A stretch of DNA of 64,000 nt. Origin: the human T2T-CHM13v2.0 reference genome, Homo sapiens. The DNA lies in NCBI GenBank assembly GCA_009914755.4, contig CP086569.2, positions 7,488,001 through 7,552,000 of the forward strand, read 5' to 3'. The notes below the pieces were generated by a model. It saw nothing but the letters and a program-made list of their open reading frames with translations. It ran no database searches and was not told where the DNA came from. Below are positions 21,336 to 55,832 of this stretch, piece by piece; within the stretch, counting starts at the first letter, position 1, and each line of letters begins with the position of its first letter. The position numbers and the translations under genes were made by a program.

Positions 21336-21658
21336 TGACAAGCTGAACAAACAGACAAGATCTAATGGTATGCTGTAATCAAGACACCCATCTCAAATAA
21401 CCTCAAATGAAAAGAGAAAAAAAAATCTTCTAAGCAAATAGAAAACAGAATAAAAGCAGAGGTTGCAATCCTAGTTTCTGGCAAAACAGACTTTACATAA
21501 ATATAGGTTTTAAAAAAAGACAAAGAAGGACATTACATAATAGTAAAGGTCTATATATACACACACACCCCCAAAAAAGCACTCAGATTATAAAGCAACT
21601 TCTTAGAGACCCTCGTAGATCATAAGTTAAATGTTCTTCAACAGCCATTACCTTTATG

Positions 21659-22833
<1,175 letters not shown>

Positions 22834-22977
22834 CTACAGTAAGATAAAAAGACCCAGCTAAAAAAAAAAAGAACTACAAATTTCTCCCTCATTAGACCCA
22901 GGTGAATACACTTTGCAAATATATAATTAACCAAAGCACATTAATAAGGTGACAATAAAATATTACAGGCTCTAATT

Positions 22978-25915: not shown

Positions 25916-28900
25916 CCTTTTTGTCATGTTGTTTTACAATGATTGGAAGACCTAATGTTGTGAATATGTCCATGCTGTTTAAAGTGACCAACACGTTATT
26001 ATATATTGCTCTAAACCAGGTTGTATTGTCAACATCTATAGGCAGGTTTAAGGGAGAAGATCCATTATTGTGCCTGTGGGCTGGGTCCAGAATGAGTCAC
26101 CATCGCCCCTGTGGCCAAATCCACATAAAAATGTCACAATTTTAACTGTGTGCTGTATTCTTTTGTCAGGCTCAGGACCTCAAGAGTGGGCACTGCAAAT
26201 GTGGAATGGTGACAACTCTTAATTTCACTATGGTGTGTAACCAAGAGTTCCATTCTGAACCTTTTTCTGGACCCTGTTATGAAACTCTTTACCACCAAAC
26301 AGTTTATACAATATAAGTTAGTGTTGTAAGCTAATGTGAGTTTGGTACAAATATGCAACCCAGGACCTTACATATTGCCTTAAGACAAATAATGAGAGGA
26401 AAAATATCTCCTATTGGCTGTATCCCAATGTAAGTTTCATCTTCATGCCTGGGAACTGAAGCAAGGTATATGTCATAATTCCATATGTGAGCAAAAAACA
26501 AGACAGTAGGTTAACATTACATAGATGGTGTACTAAGCAATATGTCACAATGCCTCCTCTAGGTAGGGTATAAAAAAATTGGATCACAGTAACTTGATGC
26601 TAGACTCAGCATTGAACAACATCCCACATGTGGAAAATATCAAGCCAAGTTATAAGACACAAAACACTTACATAATGGGCCAAAGATATGTCGATGTATA
26701 TTCGGTGGCTCTGTCATGGGCAGAAGAGTCACATCATAAGGGTGCTGGGCCCAGCAATATGCAATATGCCATAATTTCTCTTTATGCACGATCTAGGAAG
26801 AAGAGAAAAAAATTACATGGTATTGGGCCACACAATAGGTCAGAATTCCTTCTTTCTGGTTATAATTCCAGAAAAACAGGAGGGTCAATGTCCTGACTGC
26901 TGGGCTCAGCAATATGTCAAAATTCTCCTATTTTGAAGGCCCAGGTTGAAAAAGACAGTCACATCACTTAGGTCAAGGGCTCAGAGATATTTCAAAGTGT
27001 CCGAAGTAGGCAGGGCTCAGGCAGATGAGGAGAATCATATCACCTAGGTGCTGCCCTAGGAATGTGTTACAGTGCAATATGAGGGCAGCATCCAGGCAGA
27101 AGGGCCACATCACTCAAGTGCTAGTTCCTGAGGTATTTCACAAGGATCTCTTAACAAAACACAGAACAAAGAGAGTTACATCACCTAGCTGAAGGTTCTC
27201 TTCTTGTGCCAGACTGCCCCATGTGGGTAGGACCCAAGAAGGGACTCACATCTCCTAGGGGATATGCACAGAGATGTGTCACAATGTCTTCTGTGAAGCA
27301 TAGCACTGGAAACTAGGCCTGTGTACCTGGCCTAGAAATGTCACTCTCCAGGTTCACAGGACCCAAGCAAGAGTCCCACATAACCTAGGTGACAGGCCCA
27401 GAGATATGTCACAATGCATTTCTTTGGGAATGACTCTGGCAAAATAATTCTCTCATCTGTGTGTTTGGCCTTGCAATATGTCACTCTACTTCCTTTGTGC
27501 AGGGCCCATTTCAGAGAGAAGAGTTATATCACCTGTGGGGTGAATAGAAAGATATATCACAATAATTTTTGTGGGCATGGCAGAGGGAAAAATATAACAT
27601 CACCTGGGTGCTAAAAGCAGTGATAAGACACAATCCTTACCGAGAGATGGACCCAGGCAAGAAAGTCACAAAACTTTGAGGTTGGCCTAGGTAGATATCA
27701 CAATCACATATATGGACTGAAAGAAGTCTAGAGAGTCAAATTACACAAGTGCTTGGCAATAATTTATATCAAAATCACACTGCCAGAATATTCCAAAGGT
27801 GAGATTTACAATACCAAACATGTCCTGTTTTCATCTTTGACAGTTGACTTCATCCATGTGAGGTAATGACAGTTCTTACTGTGAGATGGATGTGCATACA
27901 AGACTAACAATATCACCTGTGTGCTGATCCCAGCTTTGACTCCTTCTGTATAACCCAAAAACTTTGTAAAATATGTATGAGTGTTATAATCTTTTGTGAC
28001 CTTTCTATAAAAGGTGATCCAGGGCATCAGGCATGTCCCTAAAACTAGATATAGAAGTCAAAATTGCATCTTTGCCTGAGTCCACATATGACAGTCATTA
28101 TCATCCCTCTTAGCCATGCCTAGGTATAGATTTCAATTCCCTCTGCGTTTATGAAACAGGCAGAACAGGCACATCATCTAAGTTCTGGGCCAGAAGTATT
28201 CCATATTCTATTTGTAGTCAGGGTTCTGTCAGAAATATCATACTTGTGTGCTAGGTCCAGCTCTGTGTCCTAATGTTTCTTTTGGGCACTGTCCAGGCAG
28301 GAGAGGAGAGTCTATCATCAAAAAGATGGGCCCCAAAATATGTCACAATGCCTACTGTTGGCAGGGCCCAGGCAAGAGAGTCGTATCATTTAGACACAGT
28401 GTTTAGAAATGCTACAATTACTAAAGGAAGCAAGTTACAGGCAGGAGAGGAGAGTTGTGTAACCTAGATGATGGGTCCAGAAATATGTTACAAATCCCCT
28501 TGAGGACATTGTTAAGATAGCACAGTCAAATCACCAAGTTACTTGGCTCAGGTTCTTGTGAAAAATCTCATTTGTAGGCTACACTTATGCAGAATTATTA
28601 AATCACTTAAGAGCTGGGTAAATGTATAAGTCACAATTACACTTCTGTAAAGGTTTAAGAATAAAGGTCACCAACCTGTATACGTCCTGGCTCCACTCCT
28701 ATAAGCTGTTATTAGGCTTTTGCTGTGGTCTCTGGTATATGGCACAATGTCACGTGGCCAGAGAGAAGGCAAGAAATTCACATTACCTATGTGGGTATGG
28801 CTCCAGTGTGATGTCACAATTTACCTTTTGGACAGGACACAGGCAGAAAAGTCACATCACCTGAATGCTGATTTCAGTGACATATGAAAACACCATCTGT

Positions 28901-30232
28901 GGGCAAGACTTTGGCAAGAAAGAGACTTACTTCACCTGGGCAATTGGCCTAGATATATGTCACAATGTCTGTTCTGTGCAGTACCAAAGCTGCAGAGTGA
29001 CCTCACATTTGTGCTGGGACCAGCAATATGTCACAAACTCCCTGTGGTCAGCGTACAGGTTAAAGTGGGCAAACATCAGCTAGGTGCTCAGCCAAGCGAT
29101 ATGTTACAATGTTTTCTGTTTGCAGAGCCCTTGAGAAAGAATCACATCACCTGGGTACAGTGTTATGTGTCACAATGCACTGTAAGTGCAGGGCCAAGGC
29201 AATAGAAGAGAGTCACATTACTTATGTGATGGATCTAGATATAAAACATAAATTCTCTTTGTAATCAGGTTTTGGGCAGATAATTTACATAACCTGGGTA
29301 ACAATATGAGTAATATATAAAAATTCCCTTTGTAGGCAGAACCATGATAAATGCTATATATTGCATAGGTGTTTGTTATACTTATGGCATAATTTCATCT
29401 GCGGTCTGGGCCTAGAAAAAGAGTCATATCATTCATGTGCTGGTAAAAGTTGCCTGTCCCAGTCACACTTTCAGAAAAGTTCACAAATAAGTTTCACATT
29501 CCACATAAGTTCTGGTTTCCTGTATGTGGGTCAATACTTTTTATGAGTTTGGTGGAACTATGGGTCACAATCTCAACAATGGGCAAGATGCAGGCACAGG
29601 AGTTGCAATCCCATTTCAAGATTGTGTTCCAGTAGGGGACTCACAGCACCAGAGACAGGCTGAATCATGGTTCAAATATGACCAAAACACCTGTGAATTT
29701 AATCCATGTATAAGAGTAATTATTTCAATCTTTGACAGCTTTTATGTGTGAGGTTTAGTGCCTCATTACTAGGCCCTGTTAATATGTAAGAATCACAATT
29801 GTATCAGTTAGGTGTGCATACAAGTCACATTCTTACCTGATTGCTGCTCTCTGTTATGACACTGTTTGTACCATACAGGGTTTAGATGACATACCTGACT
29901 GTTATAATCCTTTGTGAACTTTATACAAGTTAAAAACCCAGGACTTTTTCTTTATCAATAAGAATGGCTATAAGAGCCAAAATATCTCTATTGGCTGGGT
30001 CCAGAGACGAAATTTAATGTAGTGCATCTGTGCTTAACCAAGGCATACGTCACAATTTCACCTGTGAGCAGAGACAAGGCAAGGGAGTCACATCAACTCG
30101 GTGCTGAGTCAGTGATACACTATAATCTCATTACTAAGCTGGGCCTAATAACAAGAGTCACATTACCTGGTTACAGCCTCAAATAGTATTTCACCAAGCC
30201 CGCTATAGACAGTGAAGAAGAAAAGAAGAGTC

Positions 30233-30371
30233 AGCCAGGTGTGGTGGCTCATGCCTGTAATCCCAGCACTATGGGAGGCCAAAGTGGGGAGATCATGAGC
30301 TCAGGAGTTAGAGAACAGCCTGCCCAACATAGTGAAACCTCATCTCTACTAAAAACACTATATAGATAGAT

Positions 30372-30415
<44 letters not shown>

Positions 30416-30662
30416 CATACATACATACATACATACATACATACATACATACATACATAGATACATAGATACAGCAATATTGCAGGGCATGATGGTGGTG
30501 CCTGTAATCTCAGCTACATGGGAGGTTGAGGAAAGCAAATTGCTTTAACCTGTGGTGCAGAGGTTGCAGTATGCTGAGATTGCACCACTGCACTCCAGGC
30601 CAGGCAAGAGTGAGAGACTTTGTCTTAAAAAAATAAATAAATAAAAAGAGAGAGAGAGAGAG
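30233..30662 (+). mobile_element. Alu element (+) inside the satellite, with a compound (GATA)n(CATA)n microsatellite in its middle A-rich linker
   Basis: The left monomer is agccaggtgtggtggctcatgcctgtaatcccagcactatgggaggcc.. and the right monomer is ..gcagggcatgatggtggtgcctgtaatctcagctacatgggaggttgagg.. They are separated by (GATA) x about 13 plus (CATA) x about 11 at 30362-30470. Confidence 0.85.
30362..30470. repeat. (GATA)n(CATA)n compound tetranucleotide microsatellite
   Basis: Direct reading. Confidence 0.95.
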
Positions 30663-31559
30663 AATCACTCCACCTAGATGCTGGGGTCAGCAGTATGTAA
30701 TAAACTTTCCTCTTGGCAAAGTATAGAATATGAAGGAAAGTAACATCACTTAGGTTTTGCAATCAGAGGTATGTCACAATTTATTTGGTAAGTGGGACCC
30801 AGGCAGGAGGGGAGAGTCACTTTACCAAGTTTTTAAGTCAAATCATATTTCACAGTTTCCTCTGGGGGCAGGACACAGGCAGGAGAGACAAATAACCTAA
30901 CTTATTGTCCAAGAGATATGTGACAATATACCCTGTTGGCAGGTTCCACACAGAAGAGTCACATTATTATGATTCTAACCCAGAGATATGCCACAATGCA
31001 CCCAAGAGAAGAAATTTAAACCAAAAATTCTCAACACCTGGGTACTAGGCCTAGTTATATGCCAAATCTTCTTGTCTTTGAGGGTGACACCATTAACTCT
31101 GAGCTGAATGTGTATATGAGAGTCACAATCTCATGTGTTTCCTGGGTTGTTGTATGAACCTTAATATGTACTACATATTAAGTCTTTATACAGCATGCAT
31201 GAGATTTGAAAACCATTTGGAGAACTTCATACTCCTATGGATTCACGATCTTACATACTGCCCTAAAACCACAAATAATAGTCAGTATCTCTGCTGTAGG
31301 CTGGGTCCAGGTATGAAAACCATTATTATGCCTATGAGCTGGATCCAGAAATGAGCCACCATCTGACCTGTGGCCAGATCCATATATGGGCACAATACCA
31401 ACTTGTACTGAATTCACTTGTTAGAATCAGGACCTTAACAGTGTGTTTTGGACACATGGGATGGTGTCAACATCTGCTTTTACCTGGATGTGTAATCAAT
31501 AGTCCCAATCTGAGCTTTATGCAGGTCTTTTTCATAAAACCCTGCCAAGTCTGCCCCAC

Positions 31560-32160
31560 AGAAACAGCCCAAGTGATGGATGAAAGAATATCACTGACAC
31601 ATGTATTTTTCCTGAGAGTGTGGTTAGCTGACTGTATGTTTAACACTGTCGATGAGAGTGCAGCAACAGCATCAGGAGAAGGAGTAGCTGAGACTGTAGC
31701 CACTATGAAGAGAGTGCAAGACCCACCAAAAGGATTCAGCAGCTGCTGAGAGAGTATAATTGCAACAGCAGCAAAGTGTGTAGAGCAGCAGTAGCTGAGA
31801 GTGCAGCGGTGAACATCCGGTGACGCTCAAATTTATTTAGTAGAGATTTAATAACAAAGGCTTGGAGCAAACCCAGTTTGTGTTTAATAAACATTTTCCA
31901 CTTCTCGATTAGAGAGCAGTCCTGCATGCAAATGATCAAAGGTTGGTTTCTGGAGACATATGTAAACCAATGTATGTAGATAAGCCCCTTTGCATTCCCT
32001 CATTATCTTCCCTTTACTCTCAGGCTCTGAGTAAGAGAGTTTGGATGCCTTCAGAGAAAATTCTTTTCCAAAGTTTTGCAAGAAGTCCTGGTGTTCCAGG
32101 AAAATTTGCATATTTCCTATCATTTTTTCCATCACACCCTGACTGATGTCCTACATCTCC
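31560..32160. repeat. Unclassified ~0.6-kb repeat X, copy 1 (left boundary of the non-satellite island)
   Basis: Homologous to 35140-35762 (..gatggatgaaagaa..ctgacaca.gtattttcctgagag....tggtttctggagacatatgtaaaccaa.. against ..caatggatgaaagaag..ctgacacaggtattttgcctgagag....tggtttctggaaacataaatacaccaa..). It contains an imperfect CAG/CAA-rich tract. Confidence 0.6.
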
Positions 32161-33248
32161 CTCTTTTCTTTCTTTTTTTTTCATCAAGTTTTGTTTACTG
32201 AAGACTACAGATGTCTGCAGCAACAGGATTGTCAGATACCGTGCTTATAAGTGGTATTCTGGCTTTGCATCCTAGAATTACTAAATAACAGAAGACAAAC
32301 ATGAATATAATCATAAACATTCTATTCCAATCAAGGAGTGGCATGTAGTGTTAATTGGCACCTCAGTTCAATGTGTGCTGTTACTAACGAATCCCACTGC
32401 GGGTATTTTAACACTTTCTATCCAAGCAGTTGCATTGTTAGAAGCTGGGAAGGGGGTTTCTGTCTAAGTAACAGGACAGTAGAAAGGCTGATTTAAAAGA
32501 TGTGCCTAATAGAGTGTAGGAGATATGGGATGCAGGCAAAGTAAGAAAATAAGAAAGGTTAATAAAACATAACAAGGAACAAATTTTCTGGAGTGAATCG
32601 TGTCTGTGTCCAGAGCAGGATTCACTCAGCCTTCTGAATTGTCTTCTTCAGCCTCCCTCTGGTAATGTCTGGGGGCATGAGTTGTATAAATAAGCCACAT
32701 TCTGGGGGACTGTGGGGTTTGCATGGTTATTTCCTTTATTTCTGGTACCGGGTTGCATTTTAGCTATGCTATGTTTAGGTTTGATATATTGTATTGGAAT
32801 TCAAAGAGGGCCTGAGGAGGTGTGAACATAAGCATACCCTCTTACCCATGTTAGCAAATTATTTGGACCATACCATACATGACTAACCAAATCTTTCTAT
32901 AAAACTGTGGGGTTTATGTCTTGAGAGGTTTTAGCAAAGTTCTTTTATATAGCTGAAATTTGTCATTTAAATTTAAGAAATTAAGGGTAAAGAAAACTTG
33001 TACTAGTAGTGTTGCAGGGTCTTTACTCATATTCCTTCTTCTTTGTTTTCTGAGGCAATATTTAAGAGAGCAATGGACATATTGTGTCCTTGGGGTTTAT
33101 ATGGGATGCCTGTGGAATGTAGGACACTCCATATATGAAAAAATTGTGTCAATTGTGAGATGACATATGCCAGAATAATTTTGCAATTAGGCAATCCTTT
33201 TTTACTGAGGATCAAAGCCTGCTTTACGTGATAACTGTCACACAGTAG

Positions 33249-33914
33249 TGTTACTGGTGGGTCTTTGTTCTCAGAGCTGCCAAGATGGTGGCAGGCAACT
33301 TCCAAGATGGTGGCAAGTCTTTTGTTCTCTGACCAAGTGTTCTTGGCCTCATGGTTTCAAAGGATTGAAATTTTTTTACCATGTGGTGGATGTTATAGCT
33401 CTATTTTCTAATAGAGCTATTAGATGTAGGTCATGGAAGAGAATGGTGGAACCCAGCAACTAGTGTTCAGCTCTATTAGGATGAATCTGAAGTCAGTGGC
33501 GAGTCTGTGATGGTGGTGACCAGCACTGGTGGATGGCAAACAAAAGCTCAGCTCAAGCTGGAACAAACATGGACCAGAAGAGTGTGCAGTTTTAAGATTT
33601 AATAGAGTGAAAACAGAGGTCCCATACAATGAGAGGGGACACAAAGTGGGTTGCCTCTGCTGGGACAAATGCCTGGGTATATATATCCCAATAATTGTCC
33701 CTTCCATTGTGCTGTCAGGTGATATATGATTTGATTATTTCTTTACCTCCTGCTTTCAGCCTAATTGGTACTTTAGGGAGCTCTCTTTCCTACCTGATTT
33801 GTTGGGTGTGAGCTGAGTTACAAGCCCCGGGATTAAAGGTGGGTGTGGTCACGTTCCCCAGCCAGGCTTAGAATTCCTAGTTGGTCTAGGAAATCCAGCT
33901 AGCCTTTTCTCTCA
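33249..33914 (-). mobile_element. Solo HERV-W-type LTR (LTR17-like), about 666 bp, within the satellite island
   Basis: It begins tgttactggtgggtctttgttctcagagctgccaagatggtggcaggcaacttccaagatggtggcaag.. and ends ..ggaaatccagctagccttttctctca (TG...CA). It aligns as the reverse complement of the HERV-W LTR and to the two LTRs at 54010-54794 and 59850-60626. Confidence 0.7.
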
Positions 33915-35139
33915 GTAGGACTGCTGAGCATCCCTTGAGGAAGTACTTTCTAATTAAATCTGTGAGCTGACCTTTCATTATTGCTAGCTGCTATGGTAAA
34001 TGCAAATTATTATGTTCTGTTCTTCAATGGGAATAGTATAAAAGCAGCCTTTTAAGTCAATAATGACCATAGACCAATCTTGAGGAATAGCCATGGGTGA
34101 AAAGAATCTCCTGTTGAAGGGGTGTGCAAATTAGCATTGATAGGCCATAAATCATGCACAATCTCCATTTGTGAGACATTTTTTGAATGAAGAAAAAGGG
34201 CAAATTCCGAGGGCTGTTTGATGTCTTTATATAGCCAGCTTCTGATTGCTCCTCAGCTTATTCATGGGCTTGTTGTAACTTCTCTCCCTTTAAAAGCTTC
34301 TGTTCTCCCCAAATCGCATTTTAAGAGAGCCATGTCCAGGGAAGGGGAGGAATAACAGTGCCCATTATCAGAAAGAAGTCTGTAAAGTGACCTTGATTAA
34401 CCCTCTCATAAATGGGCTAGTGGTTACATTTTTTCTAATGCTTTTTCTTATTTCTTTATGTACATGATTGCCTTGTTGATTTTTGGGCAGGACAAGATTT
34501 CCCCTTCTAATGCCACTTGCCTAAGACAGGGTCCCATATCTGTAGCATATTCCTTGTCCTTTCTCTAATTTATTGGAGGAGGGAGCTCAGGGGAAAACCT
34601 CCATTTTCTCTGTGGCACTTTTACTCTCAAATAGTGGAACTGAGGGAGGAGGAGGAGGTTGTAAGGTAGGTGATGATTCTTCCTCCCTTCTCTTCTTATT
34701 CTCTTCTGTGTAGAGTGAGACAAAATCAGTCCTAACTAAGGCTCATAACATTAAAGATGTTACTGGAAACTTACTCTTGTGCCTGATGTTATTTAAGATT
34801 TCTGCCCACTCATTCCCAGAGGTCTATGTTTAGTGTGCCTTCTGGGAACAATTGGTTATGAAAAAACAACAAAAAAAACCCAGTTTGCATTAGGTTCCTT
34901 AATTAAGACTTTGAAACTGAGGCTCCACTAGCTTTAAGCAGCTGTTTCACTATTTTTATATACTGTTGCTGTTGAGCTAATAACTGATGTCCCATGATGA
35001 AACCCTAGCCTGAACAATTCCCTCAAATTTGGAAATCCCAAGCAGGTATCAATGACTTACTCACTGCACAGTCTTTTCACCTTCATTTTTGAGGGTTTCA
35101 TCATGATTTGTTGCAGCATTCCTCACACAGGACACCACC

Positions 35140-35762
35140 TGCTGCGTCTGTCTCATGGACTCTGGCTGAGCAATGGATGAAAGAAGTTTGCTGACACAGG
35201 TATTTTGCCTGAGAGCTCCACAAAAGGACTGCATGCTCAGCATCACTGGCAAGCATGCAGCAGCAGCAGCAGCAACAACAACAACAACGACTGCAGCAGC
35301 AGCAGGAGCCAAGAGTGCAGCCACCACAAAGAGAATGCAGTAGCCACTGATACAGTGTAGCAGCTGCCAAGAGTGCATCATAACAACAGCAAGAGTGCAG
35401 CCCCCAGAAGCCAGTGACACTTGCATTTAGGTAGTACAGAATTAATGACAAAGGCTTGACACAAACAAAATTTTTGGGTAGTAAGATTTTTGACTCCCTG
35501 ACTAGACAGCATTCTTTGTTCATTCATGTGAATGAAAAAAAGATTGGTTTCTGGAAACATAAATACACCAAATTATCTAGATAACTTTCTTTATATTTCC
35601 TTGTTATCTAATATTTGCTTTCAGGTTCTGGGTAAGAGAATTTGTCTGCTTTCAGCCCAAATTATTTTCTGAAGAGTTTGGAATATCTCCCAGCCTTCCA
35701 AGAAGGTTTGCGTTTTTCCTATAATTTTTCCACCACCCTGATACATCTCCTACAAAACTCTC
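35140..35762. repeat. Unclassified ~0.6-kb repeat X, copy 2 (right boundary of the island), containing (CAG)n(CAA)n(CAG)n
   Basis: Homology to 31560-32160. The tract gcagcagcagcagcagcaacaacaacaacaacgactgcagcagcagcagg is at 35258-35307. The poly-Ala/Val/Cys 'proteins' of ORFs 35061..35523 are translations of this tract. Confidence 0.6.
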
Positions 35763-41700: not shown

Positions 41701-44700
41701 ACTCAAAATTTTAAATGTGTGCTGAGCCTTGCTTTGACTCTGTCTGTATAAACCAAAGACTTTGTAAAATATGTATGAATGTTATATTATTTCATGACTT
41801 TGTACATGAAGGTGATGAAGGACATCACATATGTCCCTAAACTTAGTTGTAAGAGTCAAAATATCCTCTATTGGTTAACCCCACGTATGAGAGTCATTAT
41901 CATGCTTGTGAGCCATGCCTATATATATGTTACCTTATATGTTATATTAATATGTTATATTTTGCTGGTCCCTGTCATGAAACTGTCTGTACCACCAAAA
42001 GAGGTTATAAATTATGAGTTAGTGCTGTAAAGTCCTGTGAGCTTTGTAGCAATATGCAAATCAGGACATTAACTATTGTGCTAAGTCTAATGATGAAAGG
42101 CAAAAATGTCCCCTGCTGGCTGAATCCCAGGTTAAGTTTGACCATCATTACTGTGAACAGAAGTCAAGTATAGGTAATAGTCCCATATGTGGGGAAAAAA
42201 CTAGGCAGGAGGGTACTATCACTTGGGTGGTGTACCAAGCAGTGTGTCACAATGCCCTCTTGAGGCAGAGTATAGGAATTAGAGTCACATTAACTGGGTG
42301 ATGGACTCAGCAATATGACACCATCCCACATGTGGAAAAAAACTGCTAAGTTATCAGAGCCAAAATACTATGTAATGGGCCTAAGATATAACAAAATACC
42401 ATCTGTGGCTCCTGCACAGGCATGAGCATCACATTTTCAGGTTGCTGAGCCCAGTAATATGCCCTAATTTTCTCTATATGCAGGATGCAGATAAAAGAGT
42501 AACACTGCATGCTGAGCCCTCCAATAAATGAAAACTTGTGTTTGTGGGCATGGTTTGAGAAAAAAAAAAAGGTGAATCAAATAAACTGAGTGCTAGGCTC
42601 AGCAATATGTCACAATCCTCCCATTGTAAAGACCAGGTAGGAGAAAAGAGTAACTTCACTAATATCATGGGCTCATAGATATATCCCAGTGTCCCCTATA
42701 GGAAGGTTCCAGGCAGAAAAGGAAAGTCATATTGCCTAGGTGCTTCCCTAGATACATGTCACAATCTCATGAGTGGGTAGAAACAGACAGAAAAGCTACA
42801 TCACCTGGGTGCATCCTGATGTAATGTGTCACCACACCCAATGTAAACAGATTTTAAGATTAAAAAAAAAAACAGAATCACAACACCTGGGTGTTGGGCT
42901 CAGCAGTATGTAATAGTTCTCTTTCTGGGCAGCGTCAAGGAAAAAGAGTAGAGTCATGTCACCTAGGATTTGCACTCAGTGGCATGTCACAATTTCTTCA
43001 GCAGGCAGAATCCAGGCAGGAGAGGAGAGTCACATTACCTAGATGCTACATCTATCGATATGTCATAGTGTTCCCTGTGGGTAGTACACTGGCAGGAGAG
43101 ACACTGGGGTCTTCAGCCAACAATGCAATAAAAACCACACGAGGAAGAAACCCAACAAATTGATGACAGCCAAAAAACCTACAGAATGGGCCAAAGATAT
43201 TTCAAAATACCTTTTGTGGCTCTGGCACAAGCCAAAGAGTCACATCATTAGGGAGCAGGGTGAAGCAATATGCCATAATTCCCTCTTTATTAATGACCAA
43301 GGCAGAAAAGAAACAGCATCTGGGTTCTGGGCGCTGAAATATACAGCAAAAGTCCTGTTTGTGGGCATTGTTCAGCAACAAGACAGGTGTCAGTTTACCT
43401 AAGTGCTGCAGCTGGACTCCTCAGTGTATTACAGTCCTGCCATTGTTAAGGCTAAGATAGAAGAAGAGAGTCTTATCACTTAGGTCATGGGCTCAGACAT
43501 AAGGCCAAGCTAGCAGTAAGCAGGGCTCAGGCAGAAAAAACAAGTTATATCACCTAGGTGCTTATTTAGGTATATGCCACAATTTTATATGTGGGTAGAA
43601 ACCAGGCTGAAGAGCTACATCACCTGGCCCAGGTACCTGAGATATTCACAAGTCCCTCTTAAAAAAATTACCCAGGCAAGAGAGTTATGTCACCAAAGTG
43701 CAGGATTCATCCTTATATCGCAATGCTTCATGTAGGCAAGGCCAAGCCGTAAGTCACGTCACCAAGGAGATAGTCCCAGAGATAAGTCACAAAGCCTTCC
43801 TTAAAGCATGACCCTGTCAGAAGAGTACCATCATCTCAATGCCTGGCCTAGAATTATGCCACTATTCAAGTAGGAAATTCCCAAACAGAACAGCCATATA
43901 ACTTACATGATATGCCCTGTGATATGTCAAAATGTCATATCTTGGAAATGGCTCTTGCAAAAGAATATCATCACCTGTGTGTATGGCCTAGGAATATGTC
44001 ACTATTTTGCACTGTGTGCAGGGCCCATTCCAGAGAAGAGTTTTGTCTCATAACTGAGGGACACAGTGGTATGTCACAATCATGTCTGTGGGAATGGTGC
44101 AGCCAAGAATGTAACATCACCTGTGTGCTGGATCCAGTGATGTCACAATACTTACTGAGAGCAGGGCCCAAGAAGAACAATCACATCACTTCAAGGTTGA
44201 CCAAGTTAAATATCAAAATTCCATTTGTAGGCTCGCACCTGTCTGAAGAGTGAAATCACACAGGTGTTTGACAAAGATATATATCACAGTCACAATGGAA
44301 GATAATTCTAGGGCTTAGATGTATAATACCATATAAGTCCTATATTCATGTAGGAGAATTGCCTTCATCCATCTGTGATGGAGAAAGCCTTTAGTGTCAG
44401 CTGGGTGTGCATAAGAGACTTACAATTTCCTCTGTGTGCTAGACCCTGTTATGACACTCTCTATACAATGCAAGGGTGTTATAAAATATGTGTGAGTGTT
44501 TTAATCTTCTTTGACATTTTTACCAGAAGGAGATCCTGGACATCACTCATGTCCCTCAACCTTGTTATAAAAGTGGCCTTATTGGCTGGGTCAACATATG
44601 GGAGTCATTATCATGCCTCTTAACTGTGCCTAGGAATATGTCACATCCCCACTGTGATTATAAAACAGGCAGGACAAACACATCACCTAAGTCCTAAGCC

Positions 44701-47700
44701 ACAAATATTTCAATATTCTCTTTGTTGGCACGGCCATAAGAGAAATATCACAAAATTTGTGGGCTATGCACAGCTTTAAGGTGTAATGTCCCTTGTGGAA
44801 AGTGTCCAGGCAGGAGAGGAGAGACATACCACATAAAGGATGGACCACAGATATATGACAATGCCTCCTGTTGAAAAGGCTTAGGCAAGAGGATCATGTA
44901 ATTTGTATGTAGTGCTTAGAAATGGTACATTATTCACTGGAAGCAGGGTTTACGCAGGAGAGAAGAGTCACATAACCAAGATTATTGATTCAGAGATATG
45001 TTAAAATCCCATCTGAGGACAGTGTTAAAACATGAGAATCAAATCACTGAGGTTTTTTGTCCAGGTTTATGTCAAAATGACATGTGGAGGCTGAAACTAG
45101 GAAGGGTTATTAAATCACTCAGGATATGGGGATGGTAAAACTCACAATAACCCCTGTGGAAAGATTCAGAGATGAGTGTCACCATCCTGCGTATCCTGGC
45201 TCCAGGTACAAGAGTCATTATTAGGCTTTTTATCTGGTCTCAGCTATATGGCACTATATAACCCATGGGTTGGAAGAAGAAAGGAAAGCCTCATCATCTG
45301 AGTGGGTACTGGTACAGTGAAATGTTACAATTCTCCTTGTGAGCAGGATATTGGTAGAAGATTCACATCACCTGGATGCAGGTTTCAGTAATATATCTAA
45401 ATCCTGCCTGTGAGTAGGACTCAGGCAGTGAAGGAGACAAACTCTACCTAGGCTGTTGGTCAGGATATGTTGCAGAGTGGCCCCTATGTGCAGGACCAAG
45501 GCAGGAGAACGATCTCACCTGGGTGCTTGGTTCTGCAATATGTCGCAATCTCTGTGCTGGTCAGGGCCCAGAAAAAATAGAAGACACATCACCAAGGTGC
45601 TAAGCCAAGTGATATGTTACAAAGCTTTCTGTTGGGAGAATCCTCTCCAAAAAGAGTCACATCACCTGTGTTGAATAACCAGTTATGAGTCACAGTGCAC
45701 CCTAAGTGCAGGGCCAAGGCAGTAGAAAAAAGTCACATAATTTATGTAATGGACCTAGATAAAAGCCATAGTGCTTTTTGGAATCAGTGTTAAGGCCAAG
45801 ATTTTACATCAGCTGGGTGCTGGTTTAAGTGGTCTGTAAAAGTGCCCTTTGTCACATTGCCAAAGAAAGTGTTATTTTTTGCTTAGGTGCTTGGTGCACC
45901 TATGTCACAATTTCAACTGTGTTCTGGGCCTAGAAATGATAGTCAAAGTACTCAGATGCTGGGTAAGCTCATACTTTTCAATTGTATCCTTGAAAACGTT
46001 CAGAAATAAGTTTCACAGTCCCACACAAGTCCTGGTTTTTGGTATGAGAGTTAACACGTCCTATGAGTTGGCTTGAAGGGTAACAGAAGTCACAGTCTCA
46101 ACAATGAGCAAGATCCATGTATCGTAGCCCAAATCCTGCTTGAAGATTGTGTTCCAGTAGAAGAGTCAAATGACCAAACCTCTGATGAATCACGGTTGAA
46201 ATGTCACAAAACCACCTGTGGATCAGATTTATGTATGAGAGTCACAACTTCAATATTTGACTGCTTATGTGTGTAAGATTTAGTACCTCACTGGTAGGCT
46301 CTGTTCATGTGTAAGAAATACAATTGTGTCAGCTAGGTGTACATCCAAAAGTCACAATACTACCTGGTTGCAGGTGCCTCTAATGATACTCTTTGTATCC
46401 CTCAGGCTTTATATGATATGCCTGGTAGCATACTTTTCTGTCAGTTCCTACAGGTGGGAAATCTAGGACTTGGCAAGCAATATGTAACAATGCATTCTCT
46501 AGAAATGAGGGTTACCTTAACTGGGTACTGGCCCAGCAATATGACAAAATCCCAAATATAGAAAAAGTAAACCCACCCAAATAATGAGAGCACAATCACT
46601 TACAGAGTGTGCACAAGGTATATAAAAATGCTTTCTGTTTCTCTGACACATGCAAGACAGTTACATCATCAGGATTGGGGTGTGGGCAGCAATAGGACAT
46701 AATTATCTCTTTATGCCTGACCTAGGCAGAAAAGGAATATCATCTGAGTGCTGGGCCCTGCAATGCATCAAAATTCATTTTCTTGGGCATTGCTTGGGAC
46801 AAAAAACAGTGTCATATTACCTAAGCATTGGGCTTAGCAATATGTCACATAACCCCATTTCAAAGGCTGGCAGAAGAAGAGTCACATCACTTATGAGTCA
46901 GACTCACATATATGGCTTAATGTCCCAAGTAGGTAGGGCTCAGGCAGAAAATAAGAGTCATATCACCTAAGTCCTTCTCTCCTTATATGAAAAAATCTAA
47001 CATGTGAGGTGAAGCCAGGCAGAAGAGTCACATCAACTTGATGGTGGAACCTACGATATGTCTCAAGGCTCCCTTAGGACAGTACCCAGGCAAGAGTGTT
47101 ACAGCAAATAAGTGCATGTTCTGCCCTTATGTAACAATGCCACATGTGGATAGGGCCTAAGCAGGGAGTCACATCACCTAGGTGATAAGCCCAGAGATAT
47201 GTCACAATGTCATCCTTGAGGCATGGCCTCAAGGAAGTGCTGAAAGACTATCACTACCTGTTTGCTTAGCCTAGCAATATGTCACAATCTAGGTAAGCAG
47301 GACCCAAGCAGGAGAGCAATATCACCTATGTGATAGGCCCACAGATTTTTCACATTGCCCTTTTTATGACATGGCCCTAGCCAAAGAGTACTGTCATCTG
47401 TGTGCCTGGCCCAGCCATATGTCACTATTCCCCACTGTGTGCAAGGTCCATTCTAATGAGGAGAGTTACATCACCTAGGTGGTTGACACAGCGATATGTC
47501 ACAATGATTTCTGTGGGCATGGTTCAGGCGATTCTTACTGAGAGTAGGGCCCATGCAGGAGGGTCAAATCACCTAAAGATTGTCCCACATTGATTTCGAA
47601 ATAACGTAACTGGGCTGGAAACAGTCAGAGAGTCAAATCAGACAAATGCTCAGAAAATATTTACATCACAATCACACTGGCAGAAAATTCCCAGGATAAG

Positions 47701-50491
47701 ATTAACAATACCACACATGTTCTGTTTTCATTAGTGACAATTGGCTTTATATATGTGAGGTGGTGACAGTCCTTACTGTCAGTTGGGTGTTCATATGAGA
47801 CTCACAATTTTACCTTTCTGACAGGTTCTGTTATGACACTTTCTATACAAGACAAAGCCTTTTCCATATCACTTATACTGTTATAATCTTCCATGACCTT
47901 TTTACCATAAAGAGATTTAATCACTTGTGTTTCTAAAACAAGTTAAGAGAGTCAAAATTACTCCTATTTGGTGGAGGGAGTCTACATATGACAGTCATTA
48001 TCATGCCTGTGAGCTTTTCTTAGGTATATGTCCCAACTTACTCTGTGGTAATGAAACAGGCATGAGATCCATATAATCTAAATGCTGTGGCAGAAATCTT
48101 CCAATATTCTTTTTTGGCAAATTTCTAGAAGAAAAATCACATAACTTTGGGGCTACGCCCGACTGTATGGGACAACACCCCTTGTGGGCAGTGTTTGACA
48201 GAAGAGGAGAGAAATATTAAATAAATGGTAGGTTCAGAGATAAGTTATAGTGGTAACTTGTTGAAAGGACCAGGCAAGAAAATCATATCATTTAAATGCA
48301 GTCCTTAGAAATACTACAATCTCCAGTGGAAGTAGAATCCAGGCGGGACATGACAGTGAGGCACCTAGATTGAGGGTCCAGAGACATGTTACAAAGCTTC
48401 CTAAAGATACTGTTAAGCCAGGAGAGTCAAATCACCAAAGTGCTCAGCTGAGATATATGTCCAAATCTCAATTGTGTGCTGCACCTAGGCAGGATTACTA
48501 AATCACTCAGGGGCTGGGCAAAAGTATATGTCACTATAACACTAGTGGAAAATTCCAGGAATAGGAGTCACCATCATGCCTATGACCTGGCTCTAGGTTT
48601 AAGAGTCATGATTAGTCCTCTTATCTGGTCTCAGTTATATGGGACAATATCCCTTGTGAGCGCAGAGGAAGCAAAATATCACATCACCTGGGTGGATGTT
48701 GGTCCAGTGAGATGTCACAATCATCGTGGGCAGAATTCTGGAAGAAGGGTCACATCACCTGGATGCTGGTTTAACTGATTTATCAAAATTCCCCTTTTGG
48801 GCTGGGCTTAGAAAGGAGAGGGGACTCACTTCACCTAGGCAATTGGTGTACATATGTGTCACAATGGCCACTGTGTGCAGGACTAATGTTTGGAAGAGAT
48901 CACAACTTGGTGCTGGATTTAGCCATATGTCACAATCTCCCTTGTGGTCAGCGCAAGGCAAGAGAGGAAAAACATCACCTAGGTGCTGTGCTGAGCCAAG
49001 TTATGTGTTACAAAGCTTTCTGATGGCAAAACCCAAAATGCAGTCACATCACTTGGGAGCAGTACCCCGTTATTTGTAACAATGCACCATTAATGCAGGG
49101 CCAAGGGATTAGAATTGGATAACATCACTTACATGATGAACCCAGACATAAGCCACAGTGCTTTTTATAGGTAGGGATTAGGCAAATAATTCACATCACC
49201 TGGGAGATGGTCCTAGTTGACATGTAAAAGGGCCCTTTTTATATAGGCCCAAGAACCTATGCTTAGGTGTATGGTCCAAGTATATCACAATTTCATCTGT
49301 GGTCATGGCCTAAAAAAACCAGTCAGATTATTCAGGAGCTGGGATAACTGTTATGTCCTAATCACACACTAGACGATATTCAGAAATAAGTTTCACAGTC
49401 CCACACAACTCCTGGCTTTGTGTATGTGAGTTAACACCTCCTGTGAGTTGGGTCAAAGCAGAGGAGTCCCAGTCTCAAAAATTGGCAAGATCCATGTATA
49501 AGATGCCCAATCCCACTTGAAGACTGTGTTCCAGTGGGGGAGTCACAGCCTCACAGGTGTGCAGAATCATGCAAAACCAAATCACTCATGAATCAGGTCC
49601 GTGTATAAGAGGAACAATTTCAACCTTAAATTGCTCATTTGTGTGAGATTTAGTACCTTATTTGTAGATAATATTCTTGTGAGAAAATGACAATCATGCC
49701 AGCTAGGTGTGTATCCAAGAGTCACAATCACACCTGGTTAGCGTTCCCTGTTACGACAGTTTTTGTACCACTCAGGCTTTATATGATATGCCTGAGTGTC
49801 ATAATCCTTTGTGAACTTTATACAATTAGGTGACTCATTTCTTTACTTATGGCCATGAAGCTGACTATGAGAGGCAAATTATCGCTCCTTTCTGGGTAAT
49901 GGTAAGATAATTAAATTTGTGCCTGTAAGCTGAACCCAGATGCATGTCAAAATTTCCCCTGAGGGCAGAAACAAAGCAGCATAGTCATGTTACCTGGATT
50001 CTGAGCACAGAATACATTATAATCTCCTTCACATGCAGGCCAAGTCAGAAGAGTCATGTCAAATTGTAACAACCTCAAGGAATATGGCACCATGTAAACT
50101 GTAGACATGGTTGAAGAAAAAAAAGTCACACCATGTAGGTGCTTAGCTCAGCAATATGTAATAATTTCCTCTTTTGGCTGATTCCAGAATAAAGAGGAGA
50201 GTTACATTACCTAGGTTTTGCACTCAGTAGTATGTCACAATTCCTTTTGTGAGCAGAACCTAGGCAAGAGATGAGAGTCACATTTCCTAGATGCTATGAC
50301 CAGCAATGTCACAATGTGCCTTGGGGCAAAAGCAAAGGAAAAATATGCAAATCATCTAACTGATAGGCTCAGAGAAATGTGATAATATCCCTTGCTATCA
50401 GGGCCCAGGCAGAAAAGTCACATTTTTATGATTCTTACTCAATGATATGCCAAAATACACACATGGGAAACAATGTAAGCAAAAGTTTTAA

Positions 50492-50822
<331 letters not shown>

Positions 50823-52839
50823 CAATATCCTAAGTTTTGAGAGTGACACTTTTAACTGTTAGCTTGGGGTCTATAACAAAGTCACACGGTCACATGTGTA
50901 CTGGGACACCAAATGACATTGTCTACAACATCCCAGGGCTTCATATGGCATGAATTATATTTGCAAACTTCTCTGAGGCCCATATGCTTGTATGAACTCA
51001 CAATCTTATATATTGCCTTAAATTCAGGTACAATAGTCAACATCTCTCATTTGGGCTACGTTCAGGAAGGAGAACCATTTTTATGCCTGTGAGGTGGGTC
51101 CAAAAATAAGTCACGATCGCACCTGAGGCCAGATGCACATGTGAGAGTCACAATTCCATTTTTGTACTGTTTTCTCATGTTAAACTTAGTAACTCAGCAG
51201 TATACTTTGTAATTGTGGGATGGTGACAATTTTACTTTCACCTGGGTGTGCAACTGAGAGTCAAAATTTTAACTTTTTGCTGGGCCTTGTTATGAAACTC
51301 TCTGTACCACCCATAAAGTTTATACAAAAATGAATTGTTTTTGTAAACTTCCATGAGCTTTGTACAAATATGCAACCCAGAATTTTTTCTATTGCCATAA
51401 GCCTAGTGATGAGAGGCAAAATATCTTCTATTGGCTGAATCCCAATATAGGTTTGATCATCATGCCTGTGAACTGAGCAAGGTATGTTCCATAATCCCAT
51501 CAGTGGGAAAAAAGTTAGAAAAAGAGTAACATCACTTAGGTGATGTGGCAATCAACATGTCAGAATGTTCCCTCTAGGCAGAATCTAGGAAGGAGGGTCA
51601 CATTAACTGGGTGCTGGAACCAGCAATATGTCAATTCCACATGTTGAAAAACATAAAAAAGTGATGAGAGCCAAAACACTTAAGAATAAGTCAAAGATAT
51701 TTCAAAATACTCTCTGTGGCTCTGGCATAGGCAGGACAGAACTGCAGTGAAAGAATTATATTACCTTGGTGCAGGTTTAACTTTTATGTCACAGTGATCT
51801 ATACAGGTGAGGCCCAAGTATTCAGTCACATCACCTAGGTGATAAGCCCAGAGATATGTCACAAGGACCTCCTTGAAATATAGCCCTGGCAAAATGTATC
51901 ATTACCTGTGTTCCTGATCTACCAATATGTCACCCCATCCTCTGTGCTCAGGGCACCTTCCAGAGAAAGGAGTTACATCACCTAAGAGGTGAACACAGTA
52001 ATATGTCACAATGATATCTGTGGGTGTGGTCCAGGCAAGAATATAACATCATCTGGATGTTAGATCCAGTGATATGTCATTATCCTTACTGAGAAAAGGG
52101 ACCAGGCAGGAGAATCACATCACCTAGACATTGGATCAGGATGAGGTAGAGATTATAATCCCATATATGTGCTAGAACCTGTCTGGAGAGTCAAATCACA
52201 CAGATGCTTGGCAAGATATGAATGACATTCACACTTGGAGGATATTGCAGAGATGAGATTTACAATAACATACATGTCCTGTTTTCATGTTTCACAGTAG
52301 GCTTCATATTTATGAGATGCAGACAATACTTCCTGTCAGCTGGATATGTATATGAGACTCCCAATTTCATCTTTTGGCTGGGTTTTGTTATGGCATTATC
52401 TGCACAAGCCAAAAGTTGTAAAATATCTCAGGCTGCTATAATCTTCTGTGAACTTTTTACCAGAAAGATATCTGAGACATCACTTGCATTGCTAAACCAA
52501 GTTACATGAGTCAAACTTACTCCTATTTCAGGGGTCCACATATGAGTCATTATCATGCCTGTGAGCTGTGCCTAGTTATTTGTCAAATGTTACTCTGTAG
52601 TAATGAAACAGGCATGACAGTCACATAACGTAAATGCTGAGACAGAAATGTTCCAATATTCTCTTTGTAGGCAGGTTCTTCACAGAAAAATCACATAACT
52701 TCGGGGGTCTATGCCCAACTCTACGGCACAGTGTCTCTTGTGGGTAATGTCAGGCAGAAGAAGAGAGTCATATTACCTAAATGATAGGCCCATAGATATG
52801 TTACAATGCCACCTGTTGAAAGGGCTAGGCAGGTATCAT

Positions 52840-53995: not shown

Positions 53996-54009
53996 TCAAT
54001 AGCAGTTAT

Positions 54010-54794
54010 TGTTACTGGTGGGTCTTCTTTATTCTCAGAGCTCCCAAGATGGTAGTAGGCTGCTCCCAACATGAGGCAGACAGCTCCCAAGATGACAGCA
54101 AGCTTTTTCTTCTCTGACCTGGGGTCTTGGCCTCAGGGATTCCAAGGAATGGAATCTTGGGCCATGCGGTGAGTGTTATAGCCCTACTAGAGGCTGTGGT
54201 TCATGGAAGAGAACCATGGAAGCCAGCAAATAGTGTTCAGCTCGATTAGGACAAACCTGGGCACTTAGCCATGCAGGAACAATGGTGAGCCTGTAGCCCA
54301 ATCAGGCGTGGCAATGGATGTCTAGCTGGATTAGGAGAACCATGAACACCCTGCTGGATCCAGAGGGGTGGAAGTCAGTGGCTGGTCTGCCATGGCAGCA
54401 TTTAGCAGTGATTATCGGAGAGCAAAATCTCAGCTTCAGCAGGAACAAATACAGACCAGAGGACTGTGCAGTTGCAAGATTTAATAGAGTGAAAACAGAG
54501 CTACCATAAAATGGGAAGGGACCCAAACATGGTTGCCCCTTCCTGCTCTAATGCCAGGGTTTATATCCCAACCATTGTCTCTCCCGTCTGTGTTCTCAGG
54601 TGATATATGATTTGACTATTTCTTTATCTCCAGCTTTTGACTAATTTGTATTTTAGTTAACCCTCTTTACTATCTGATTGGTCATGTGTGAGCTGAGTTA
54701 CAAGCCCCATGTTTAAAGGTAGGTGTGGTCACCTTCCTCAGCTAGGCTTAGGAATTCTTAGTCAGCCCAGGATATCCAGCTTGTCCTATCTGTC
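54010..54794 (-). mobile_element. 3' LTR of the minus-strand HERV-W provirus (LTR17-like, 785 bp)
   Basis: TG...CA termini (tgttactggtggg ... cttgtcctatctgtca), matching the consensus as above. Confidence 0.75.
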
Positions 54795-55832
54795 AGTCCC
54801 CTCTCTAAACAGGAAAACCAAAGTGCTGTTGGGGAGGTTGGACAGAGATGGCTCTTAACTGCTTCCTGTTGAATTGGGGTGTAGTAGGGGTTGTGCAGTT
54901 GAGATTTCCTCAGGAGTGGTGCCTTTAATGTCATTAACATCAGATCATGGGATAGCAGGCCAGTTCAGTGGTCCAAGATAGATCTTAGTCATGGACTGCA
55001 TCTGGAACTCCATTTGAAGAATGATTAGTAGTTTTTACAGCTTCGATTCTGGAAGAGAAAAACTTAACAAGATGGTTAAAGGTACAGGGATTGAAATGTA
55101 TGGCTTGAAGTGCAGGGGATTGTTTCTTAGGTACACTTCACAGGCCCTGACTATCTAACTGATAGTTTTGAAAAGGCCTGGTCCAGTAAATAATGATTTG
55201 GTCATCTGATGGATGCTATCAATGCCTAAATGAAAGGTTAGGTGAAAGGTCTGAAGTAATTTCCATTGGTTAGCTGCAGGCAAAATTATTTTTTCTTCTT
55301 CAGTGGGTAGCCATCCTAAAGGGCAGAAACTATGTCATCATGAGGTTCCCCATTGTATTTCTTCTGCTAAATACTGGGGCTTGATTTCCCAGAGGGGATT
55401 ATCCCATACTATGGGTCCTTCTATAAACATTTCTAATGAAGTCCCACATTGGGGCTCTTTTGCCTTCAATATCCGCATGGCAGTCCCCTTCTATTTCCTT
55501 TTTCTTTCCTTTCTGATGACCCTGGCAGTGTAAGAATGCCACCTCTTTAGTTTTCTCTACAGCCAATAATAATCTCCTAATGGTTTTCTGATGTTTGATA
55601 GGTATTCCCTTAGAAGTTAGGAATTCCCTTTCTTTTCATATTGCTGCGTGGGCATGGAGGACTAAATGGGTATTAGCTTTCTGAGTTTCTTTAATTAGTG
55701 TGTATAATGGCCTGGCTATTTCACTGTACCTGGGAATCAATATTCAGCAGAAACCTGATAATGCAAAGGAACCCTCTTAATTGATCCAGGGTTTTGGGAT
55801 AAGCATAAGGAAGTATAGGCTGTATGGATTCC

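What the first reader, a model, noticed from the sequence alone, without database searches (positions are those of the whole stretch)
25930..52838. About 27-kb beta-satellite-like array with nested higher-order periodicities (about 3 kb and about 11 kb) rather than a homogeneous tandem array
Monomers of 65-74 bp are highly diverged from one another. Distinctive multi-hundred-bp variant landmarks recur at about 10.7-11.2 kb (26140 and 36920; 27800 and 38570; 39912 and 51150; 41590 and 52240). A shorter ~2.7-3.4 kb period shows between 38.5 and 49.4 kb (38570, 41590, 44300, 47690; 46000, 49380). One ~10.8-kb copy includes the Alu (30233) and the 4.2-kb island, and the other does not. So at least one large duplication predates and another postdates those insertions. 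This layering is informative about how the array expanded.
Basis: seen in the sequence. Interest (0 to 1): 0.5.

Follow-up and report, generated by a model that had tools for sequence, protein, structure and literature searches.

The report
Decayed beta-satellite-like array, 4.9-kb units
This is an old, mutated block of human satellite DNA made of about eight partly truncated copies of one 4.9-kb unit, later split by three mobile-element insertions; it is an ordinary relic of a kind already described beside zinc-finger gene clusters.

Summary
The whole array tiles onto a single ancestral unit of about 4.85-4.9 kb, made of roughly 55-60 monomers plus four copies of a ~260-bp variant block. There are eight head-to-tail copies (U1-U8), 65-80% identical, and most are truncated to 1.0-4.1 kb. 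That truncation produces the "2.7-3.4 kb period". The "~11 kb period" is not a repeat level. The 10,790-bp offset between U1 and U3 is 6,161 bp of array plus a 421-bp Alu and a 4,208-bp LTR retroelement, and collinearity ends after one unit. All three mobile-element insertions are each found in only one unit, so nothing shows a duplication after them. The monomer consensus resembles beta satellite but lacks its hallmarks: no Sau3A/GATCAGTGC block, 71 rather than 68 bp, 41% GC, CpG o/e 0.09. A degraded KRAB-type zinc-finger pseudogene lies 3 kb upstream, which fits the beta-satellite blocks reported in the 19p12 ZNF cluster, though the locus is not pinned. This is known biology of low interest.

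The parts
25931..52838 (+). Whole array: 26.9 kb, of which about 21.95 kb is satellite and 4.96 kb is three retroelement insertions. Monomers run in one direction only.
25931..31243 (+). U1, the only complete copy of the ancestral unit (M' 1-4892 once the Alu is removed). Homology with other units starts at 25971/25992, which marks the left edge of the original duplicated segment.
30234..30654 (+). AluS-like insertion found only in U1, with an (ATAG/ATAC)n microsatellite grown in its middle A-rich linker. It is absent at the matching site of U7 (50115-50128).
31244..36760 (+). U2. It comprises M' 62-358 (31244-31543), the LTR element, M' 352-1132 (35755-36529), and then a jump to the tail, M' 4644-4876 (36531-36760).
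31547..35754 (.). The 4.2-kb island, an old LTR retroelement found only in U2. Its LTRs are at 31547-32148 and 35143-35754 (TG...CA ends, 67.6% identical). It has a 6-bp target-site duplication (AAACCC/AAACTC), and the empty site in U1 reads GAAACTC. A solo LTR is nested at 33246-33924.
36761..39915 (+). U3 (M' 41-3275)
39916..41959 (+). U4 (M' 203-2198)
41960..42983 (+). U5 (M' 332-1361). Its junction with U6 keeps the monomer phase.
42984..46474 (+). U6 (M' 540-4016)
46475..50998 (+). U7 (M' 605-4728 plus the tail), interrupted by the AluY.
50530..50857 (-). AluY-like insertion found only in the U7 tail (90% identical to consensus, 97% at non-CpG sites).
50999..52838 (+). U8. It covers M' 62-798 and M' 1447-2444, with an internal deletion that keeps monomer phase. 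The array ends here against an L1 fragment.
26174..26433 (+). Landmark A in U1, one copy of the ~260-bp variant block. The other U1 copies are at 27835-28091 (B), 29758-30010 (C) and 31079-31316 (T, which spans the tail/head junction). There are 22 copies in the array.
21668..22658 (-). Context: a degraded C2H2/KRAB-type zinc-finger pseudogene with frameshifts and stop codons, 3.3 kb upstream of the array.

Best explanation
The region is a relic satellite block. A ~4.85-kb stretch of an already diverged beta-satellite-type array was amplified head to tail into at least eight copies. That stretch held about 55-60 monomers of ~71 bp plus four copies of a ~260-bp block of very degenerate monomers.

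The amplification was a single ancient burst, most likely by unequal crossing-over or replication slippage between sister chromatids (inferred). Homogenisation then stopped and the copies drifted apart to 65-80% identity. Out-of-register exchanges or deletions removed parts of most copies, leaving units of 1.0-4.1 kb. This produces the irregular 2-3.5 kb spacings.

Later an LTR retroelement entered, itself later hit by a solo LTR, followed by an AluS and an AluY. These insertions stretched the array to 26.9 kb.

The sequence has no coding potential. It is extremely CpG-depleted, which implies long-term germline methylation. Its likely present role is passive, as a heterochromatin-type spacer in a KRAB zinc-finger gene cluster. 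Historically such blocks may have supplied homology for unequal exchange that expanded the cluster; that is the published 19p12 model and was not tested here.
For: Shown:
- The entire array tiles onto one unit, with tail-to-head junctions at 31243/4, 36760/1 and about 50998/9.
- Neighbouring monomers are 54% identical, whereas 98% of monomers have their best match more than 1 kb away at inter-unit offsets.
- Unit trees are nearly star-like, with 65-80% identity. U1, U3 and U4 are slightly closer to each other.
- All 224 monomer hits and all 22 landmark hits are on the + strand and inside the array.
- The U5/U6 junction and the U8 internal junction preserve monomer phase.
- The three retroelements each occur in one unit only. 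The LTR element has TG..CA LTRs and a 6-bp target-site duplication.
- The 10,790-bp offset equals 6,161 + 421 + 4,208 bp.
- CpG o/e is 0.09 and GC is 41%.
- ORFs in the array have no Pfam domain.

Relation to beta satellite:
- A published 4qA BSR primer (PMC4787827) has 4 matches at up to 3 mismatches, all on the + strand inside the array, against 0.09 expected.
- Three oligos for a ZNF208/19p12 SNP (PMC5762523) align to the monomer consensus in the right order.
- My recalled BSR consensus aligns at 52 of 63 columns, score 41 against 7.4 +/- 1.5 for shuffles.

Against: - No Dfam or RepeatMasker comparison was possible. The full BSR consensus I used is from memory.
- The second 4qA primer has no match.
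- The canonical GATCAGTGC block is absent and GATC is under-represented.
- The chromosomal location is not established. The best zinc-finger match by identity is a ZNF736-like protein (57%), whose human namesake I recall as lying at 7q11.21 rather than 19p12.
- Whether the truncated units arose by deletion or by unequal exchange cannot be told from one haplotype.
- Relative dating is rough. The LTR-LTR K2P distance of 0.36-0.44 is as large as or larger than the unit-unit distances. The order of the U1/U3/U4 split and the LTR insertion is therefore unresolved.
Confidence: 0.85

Rival explanations
1. One reading: a nested higher-order array with two true periods, about 3 kb inside about 11 kb, built by large duplications, at least one before and one after the Alu and island insertions.
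For: Long direct repeats exist at offsets of 10.6-11.2 kb and 2.7-3.4 kb.
Against: - The 10.79-kb offset contains 4.63 kb of later insertions.
- Collinearity ends after one unit.
- U1-U3, U1-U4 and U3-U4 are equally similar, and U2 does not pair with U4 or U5 as a 2-3-unit super-repeat would require.
- No insertion is shared by two units.
- The two ~11 kb offsets span different sets of units.
Confidence: 0.05
2. A three-tier satellite: ~71-bp monomers, then an older sub-unit of about 1.3-1.9 kb (one 260-bp variant block plus about 9-23 monomers), then the 4.85-kb unit. Nesting would be real, but at smaller scales than the reader proposed.
For: - The 260-bp block occurs four times per ancestral unit, at spacings of 1661, 1923, about 900 and 350 bp.
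- Copies A, B and C align to each other with z of about 50.
- The block itself looks like degenerate monomers.
Against: - Monomer blocks between landmarks show no dominant in-register diagonal: the best diagonal is 0.64 against a 0.61 background.
- Identity against distance within the unit is flat.
- The spacings are irregular.
Confidence: 0.4
3. Not a satellite relic but a tandem segmental duplication (macrosatellite) of a composite 4.9-kb segment that merely contains some satellite-like sequence plus foreign, TE-derived landmarks.
For: - About half of the array is not covered by confident monomer hits (13.2 of 26.9 kb at E<=1).
- The unit is kilobase-sized, as in macrosatellites.
Against: - In the reconstructed ancestral unit, about 55 monomers lie in continuous 66-76 bp register.
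- The landmarks align in phase to the monomer (E 2.4e-5, z 8).
- The landmarks never occur outside the array or on the other strand.
Confidence: 0.08

Closest known systems
Beta-satellite blocks interspersed in the 19p12 KRAB zinc-finger gene cluster (Eichler et al. 1998, Genome Res 8:791; cited in PMC3018141, PMC2671837 and PMC5762523)
   Same: - A beta-satellite-type block of tens of kb with complex higher-order structure lying next to a KRAB-type zinc-finger sequence.
- Ancient origin.
- Oligos from a ZNF208/19p12 SNP amplicon align to this array's monomer consensus.
   Different: - The paper itself could not be read here, so its unit sizes cannot be compared.
- Those oligos are not present exactly in the window, so this is not that particular block.
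- Only one block, with no inverted partner, lies in the 64-kb window.
- The locus is unconfirmed.
Canonical beta satellite (BSR/Beta, Sau3A family): acrocentric, pericentromeric and 4qA arrays
   Same: - Head-to-tail monomers of about 70 bp.
- A shared core, ATATGTCACAATGCCC..TGTRGGCAG..AGAGTYACATCACCTRGGT.
- Able to form higher-order repeats (PMC2671837).
   Different: - Monomer mode is 71 bp (70-76), not 67-69 bp.
- There is no Sau3A site per monomer and no GATCAGTGC block.
- GC is 41% rather than 52-53%.
- Inter-monomer identity is about 55%, against 69-75% in the Y-chromosome blocks.
- No LSau partner was recognised (PMC4787827, PMC2671837, bioRxiv 10.1101/2021.07.12.452052).
Diverged, non-homogenised satellite layers flanking active higher-order arrays (for example monomeric or old alpha-satellite layers)
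   Same: - A relic array that no longer homogenises.
- It carries retroelement insertions and deletions.
- Copies have a star-like divergence pattern.
   Different: - A different satellite family.
- A kilobase-scale unit is still recognisable here.
- The location appears to be a gene-cluster spacer rather than a centromere flank (not testable here).

Membership tests
Beta satellite (BSR/Beta, Sau3A family) | Tandem head-to-tail monomers of 67-69 bp (PMC4787827; bioRxiv 10.1101/2021.07.12.452052) | tested here: not met
   The arrangement is tandem and unidirectional. Spacing has a mode of 71 bp, a second class at 75-76 bp and a range of 64-82 bp.
Beta satellite (BSR/Beta, Sau3A family) | A Sau3A (GATC) site in each monomer and the conserved block GATCAGTGC (PMC4787827, PMC2671837) | tested here: not met
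   GATCAGTGC has 0 matches at up to 1 mismatch. There are 32 GATC sites in 21.95 kb against about 80 expected from base composition.
Beta satellite (BSR/Beta, Sau3A family) | G+C of about 52-53% | tested here: not met
   GC is 41.0% and CpG o/e is 0.09. This is compatible with CpG decay from a GC-richer ancestor, but that is inference.
Beta satellite (BSR/Beta, Sau3A family) | Sequence homology of the monomer to the family consensus | tested here: inconclusive
   - Published primer 4qAe-f: 4 in-array matches on the + strand against 0.09 expected.
- Primer 4qAe-r: 0 matches.
- The recalled 68-bp consensus aligns at 52 of 63 columns, score 41 against 7.4 +/- 1.5, but that consensus is from memory.
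- No Dfam library was available.
Beta satellite (BSR/Beta, Sau3A family) | Pericentromeric or acrocentric chromosomal location | not testable with these tools
   No human genome reference was available.
Higher-order repeat (HOR) satellite array | Neighbouring monomers are much more diverged than monomers one unit apart | tested here: met
   Adjacent monomers are 54% identical. Units are 65-80% identical. The best partner lies more than 1 kb away for 98% of monomers.
Higher-order repeat (HOR) satellite array | A constant unit length and highly homogenised copies (typically above 95%) | tested here: not met
   Unit lengths range from 1.0 to 4.9 kb and identity from 65 to 80%, with a star-like tree.
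19p12 ZNF-cluster beta-satellite blocks (Eichler 1998) | Lies between members of the ZNF91-type KRAB zinc-finger family in 19p12 | tested here: inconclusive
   A degraded zinc-finger pseudogene lies at 21.7-22.7 kb. The best hit by identity is ZNF736 of Callithrix (57% over 93% of the query), and a ZNF98-like hit is also listed. This does not fix the chromosome.
19p12 ZNF-cluster beta-satellite blocks (Eichler 1998) | Block size and higher-order architecture as described in that paper | not testable with these tools
   The paper is not held. Only its title and one-line descriptions in citing papers could be read.

The most novel reading that the evidence does not exclude
The ~260-bp variant block, present four times per unit and only inside the array, might be a distinct partner element of an uncatalogued composite satellite subfamily (analogous to LSau in beta-composite arrays). 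That would give a three-tier architecture (71 bp, about 1.6 kb, 4.85 kb) recording an earlier amplification step not yet described for ZNF-cluster beta satellite.
Probability: 0.07. Interest if true: 0.3.

Novelty: already known. Interest (0 to 1): 0.15.

Why it matters
The result matters mainly as a correction. The array's layering does record its history, but the history is one ancient burst of a 4.85-kb unit, followed by truncations and three private retroelement insertions. It is not nested 3-kb and 11-kb duplications around those insertions.

Such relic blocks are relevant to models in which satellite DNA supplied the homology that expanded primate KRAB zinc-finger clusters. They are also relevant to repeat annotation, because TRF misses the array entirely at 55% monomer identity. 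Nothing here challenges existing knowledge.

Tried and rejected
- TRF with default settings found nothing in the array. It is too diverged, so I used k-mer spectra, nhmmer and blastn instead.
- The first monomer HMM collapsed to 48 positions. I rebuilt it from anchor-delimited monomers.
- A monomer identity calculation with free end gaps gave an artefactual 97% for best partners. I discarded it and redid the calculation on HMM columns.
- Reading Eichler 1998, Waye & Willard 1989 and the chromosome 19 paper failed because none is held.
- Full-text searches for beta-satellite k-mers found only primers, not a published consensus. The supplement of PMC4787827 is not held.
- Searching the window for the rs8105767 (ZNF208) oligos gave no exact match, so the window is not that site.
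- The protein search with the stitched zinc-finger pseudogene translation was dominated by generic multi-finger proteins and did not fix the locus.
- I looked for a ~1.65-kb sub-period among monomers of the reconstructed unit and found no significant diagonal.
- I considered the landmarks as foreign TE fragments. I rejected this provisionally because they align in phase to the monomer and are confined to the array.
- The bacterial, phage and plasmid collections and Rfam were not used because they are irrelevant to primate satellite DNA.
Full report
**Context**

It carries Alus, L1 fragments with reverse-transcriptase homology, a class I endogenous retrovirus at 1.4-8.1 kb (Gag_MA, Gag_p30, RNase H, integrase and TLV_coat domains), and a degraded C2H2 zinc-finger pseudogene on the minus strand at 21.7-22.7 kb (84-bp codon periodicity; frameshifts and stops). 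The finding concerns 25930-52838.

**Checking the observation**

TRF finds no array with period up to 500 bp in the region. The 6-mer distance spectrum, however, has clear peaks at 71-72, 144-147, 217 and 288 bp.

A monomer profile built de novo from the region gives a 71-bp consensus: GCCCAGGCAGGAGAGTCACATCACCTAGGTGCTGGGCCCAGAAATATGTCACAATGCCCTCTGTGGGCAGG. It has 224 hits, every one on the + strand and inside 25931-52838. Only five marginal minus-strand hits occur, all at a short palindromic stretch.

Monomer spacing is mostly 70-72 bp, with a second class at 75-76 bp. The 170 near-full monomers are only 55% identical over all pairs and 54% between neighbours, which explains TRF's silence.

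**Anatomy**

I mapped the array onto U1 with its Alu removed (M' = 25931-30233 + 30655-31243, 4,892 bp). The whole array is tiled by collinear pieces of this one unit:

| Unit | Window coordinates | M' range | Notes |
|---|---|---|---|
| U1 | 25931-31243 | 1-4892 | only complete copy; Alu at 30234-30654 |
| U2 | 31244-31543, 35755-36529, 36531-36760 | 62-358, 352-1132, 4644-4876 | LTR element sits between the first two pieces |
| U3 | 36761-39916 | 41-3275 | |
| U4 | 39916-41927 | 203-2198 | |
| U5 | 41960-42999 | 332-1361 | |
| U6 | 42984-46471 | 540-4016 | |
| U7 | 46475-50537 plus tail | 605-4728 | AluY at 50530-50857 |
| U8 | 50999-51739, 51827-52831 | 62-798, 1447-2444 | array ends against an L1 fragment |

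The tail-to-head junction recurs three times, at 31243/4, 36760/1 and about 50998/9. The ancestral period was therefore about 4.85 kb. The left edge of U1 coincides with the head, as expected if that point was the breakpoint of the original tandem duplication.

The other junctions join internal points of the unit: 3275 to 203, 2198 to 332, 1361 to 540, and 4016 to 605. At least the U5/U6 junction and the U8 internal junction keep monomer phase. That fits homology-driven out-of-register exchange or deletion.

**Is ~11 kb a period?**

It is not, for four reasons.

- The 10,790-bp offset between U1 and U3 is 6,161 bp of array plus the 421-bp Alu and the 4,208-bp LTR element.
- Collinearity stops after a single unit: U3 ends at M' 3275 and U4 restarts at M' 203.
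- U1, U3 and U4 are equally similar to each other. Across segments, U1-U3 is 75.5-79.4%, U1-U4 is 75.4-77.6% and U3-U4 is 74.9-80.0%. The pair 10.8 kb apart is not special, and U2 does not pair with U4 or U5 as a multi-unit super-repeat would demand.
- The second ~11 kb offset (U4 to U8) spans a different set of units.

Neighbour-joining trees for six segments are nearly star-like, with per-branch K2P distances of 0.10-0.24. This points to one ancient burst followed by independent decay. U1, U3 and U4 are somewhat closer to each other than to the rest.

**Insertions**

- **The island.** It has ~605-bp terminal direct repeats at 31547-32148 and 35143-35754 that start TG and end CA. It is flanked by AAACCC/AAACTC, while the uninterrupted site in U1 reads GAAACTC. 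It is therefore an LTR retroelement. It carries a nested solo LTR at 33246-33924, related to the LTRs of another element at 54.0-60.7 kb. The LTR-LTR K2P distance is 0.36-0.44.
- **The Alu at 30234.** It is AluS-like, 80.5% identical to consensus and 87% at non-CpG sites.
- **The Alu at 50530 (minus strand).** It is AluY-like, 90% identical and 97% at non-CpG sites. The Alu consensus sequences used were recalled from memory.

Each insertion is absent from every other unit covering its site. All unit duplications involving those sites therefore predate the insertions, and nothing shows a duplication after them. The relative order of the U1/U3/U4 split and the LTR insertion cannot be resolved from these distances.

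**The landmarks**

It has 22 copies, all on the + strand and only inside the array. There are four per ancestral unit (A, B, C and T), at spacings of 1661, 1923, about 900 and 350 bp. Copies A, B and C align to each other with z of about 50.

The block's first half aligns in phase with about 1.8 monomers (nhmmer E 2.4e-5; semi-global z 8). It is best read as very degenerate monomers rather than a foreign element.

This hints at an older tier of roughly 1.3-1.9 kb. However, the monomer runs between landmarks show no significant in-register homology, so that tier remains a hypothesis.

**Relation to beta satellite**

Literature definitions are as follows:
- 67-69 bp monomers, each with a Sau3A site, and 53% GC (PMC4787827).
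- A 68-bp unit and 52% GC (bioRxiv 10.1101/2021.07.12.452052).
- A conserved GATCAGTGC block (PMC2671837).

Here the monomer mode is 71 bp and GC is 41%. CpG o/e is 0.09. GATC is under-represented and GATCAGTGC is absent.

Positive evidence for a relationship:
- One published 4qA BSR primer has four matches at up to 3 mismatches, all on the + strand inside the array, against 0.09 expected. The other primer has none.
- Three oligos designed for a ZNF208/19p12 SNP align to the consensus in the correct order within one monomer.
- The BSR consensus as I recall it aligns at 52 of 63 columns. This is a lead, not a test.

The array is therefore a divergent, CpG-decayed relative of beta satellite, not a canonical member.

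**Comparison with what is known**

Beta-satellite blocks with "complex repeat structures" interspersed among KRAB zinc-finger genes in 19p12 were described in 1998 (Eichler et al., cited in PMC3018141, PMC2671837 and PMC5762523). That paper could not be read here.

A zinc-finger pseudogene lies 3.3 kb from this array, which fits that setting. The protein search did not fix the locus: the best hit by identity is a ZNF736-like protein at 57%.

Higher-order organisation of beta satellite and expansion by unequal crossing-over are also established (PMC2671837).

**Verdict**

It is an ordinary relic satellite block of a known kind. The proposed 3-kb/11-kb nesting and the inferred duplication after the insertions are not supported. 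The correct unit is about 4.85 kb. Interest is low.

Noticed in passing
window 1404-8145 (+): A class I (gamma-retrovirus-like) endogenous provirus. Its ORFs hit Gag_MA, Gag_p30, RNase H/integrase (a 623-aa pol ORF) and TLV_coat env.
   Followed up: partly
window 21400-22900 (-): A degraded KRAB-type C2H2 zinc-finger pseudogene of about 14 fingers, with frameshifts and stop codons. The best hit by identity is a ZNF736-like protein at 57%.
   Followed up: partly
window 54007-60661 (+): An LTR-flanked element. The direct repeats 54010-54830 and 59850-60661 are 78.9% identical, and its LTR family also supplied the solo LTR nested in the island. A 184-bp x2 internal tandem lies at 57818-58178.
   Followed up: no
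window 30362-30471: An (ATAG)n/(ATAC)n microsatellite of about 110 bp has grown inside the middle A-rich linker of the AluS that sits in the array.
   Followed up: no
window 19720-20151: A young tandem duplication of a 215-bp segment: 2.0 copies at 96% identity.
   Followed up: no
window 13867-15252: An inverted pair of Alu-like elements (about 13867-14174 and 14950-15253) separated by roughly 0.8 kb. It is seen as a self-inverted blast hit.
   Followed up: no
window 17515-17755 and 59005-59238: A long (TTCC)n microsatellite (57 copies) and a degenerate (TC)n-rich low-complexity tract.
   Followed up: no
window 26174-26433 and 21 further copies inside 25931-52838: A ~260-bp variant block that recurs four times per 4.85-kb unit. 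It is confined to the array and always on the + strand. It hints at an older repeat tier of about 1.3-1.9 kb that the intervening monomers no longer show.
   Followed up: partly
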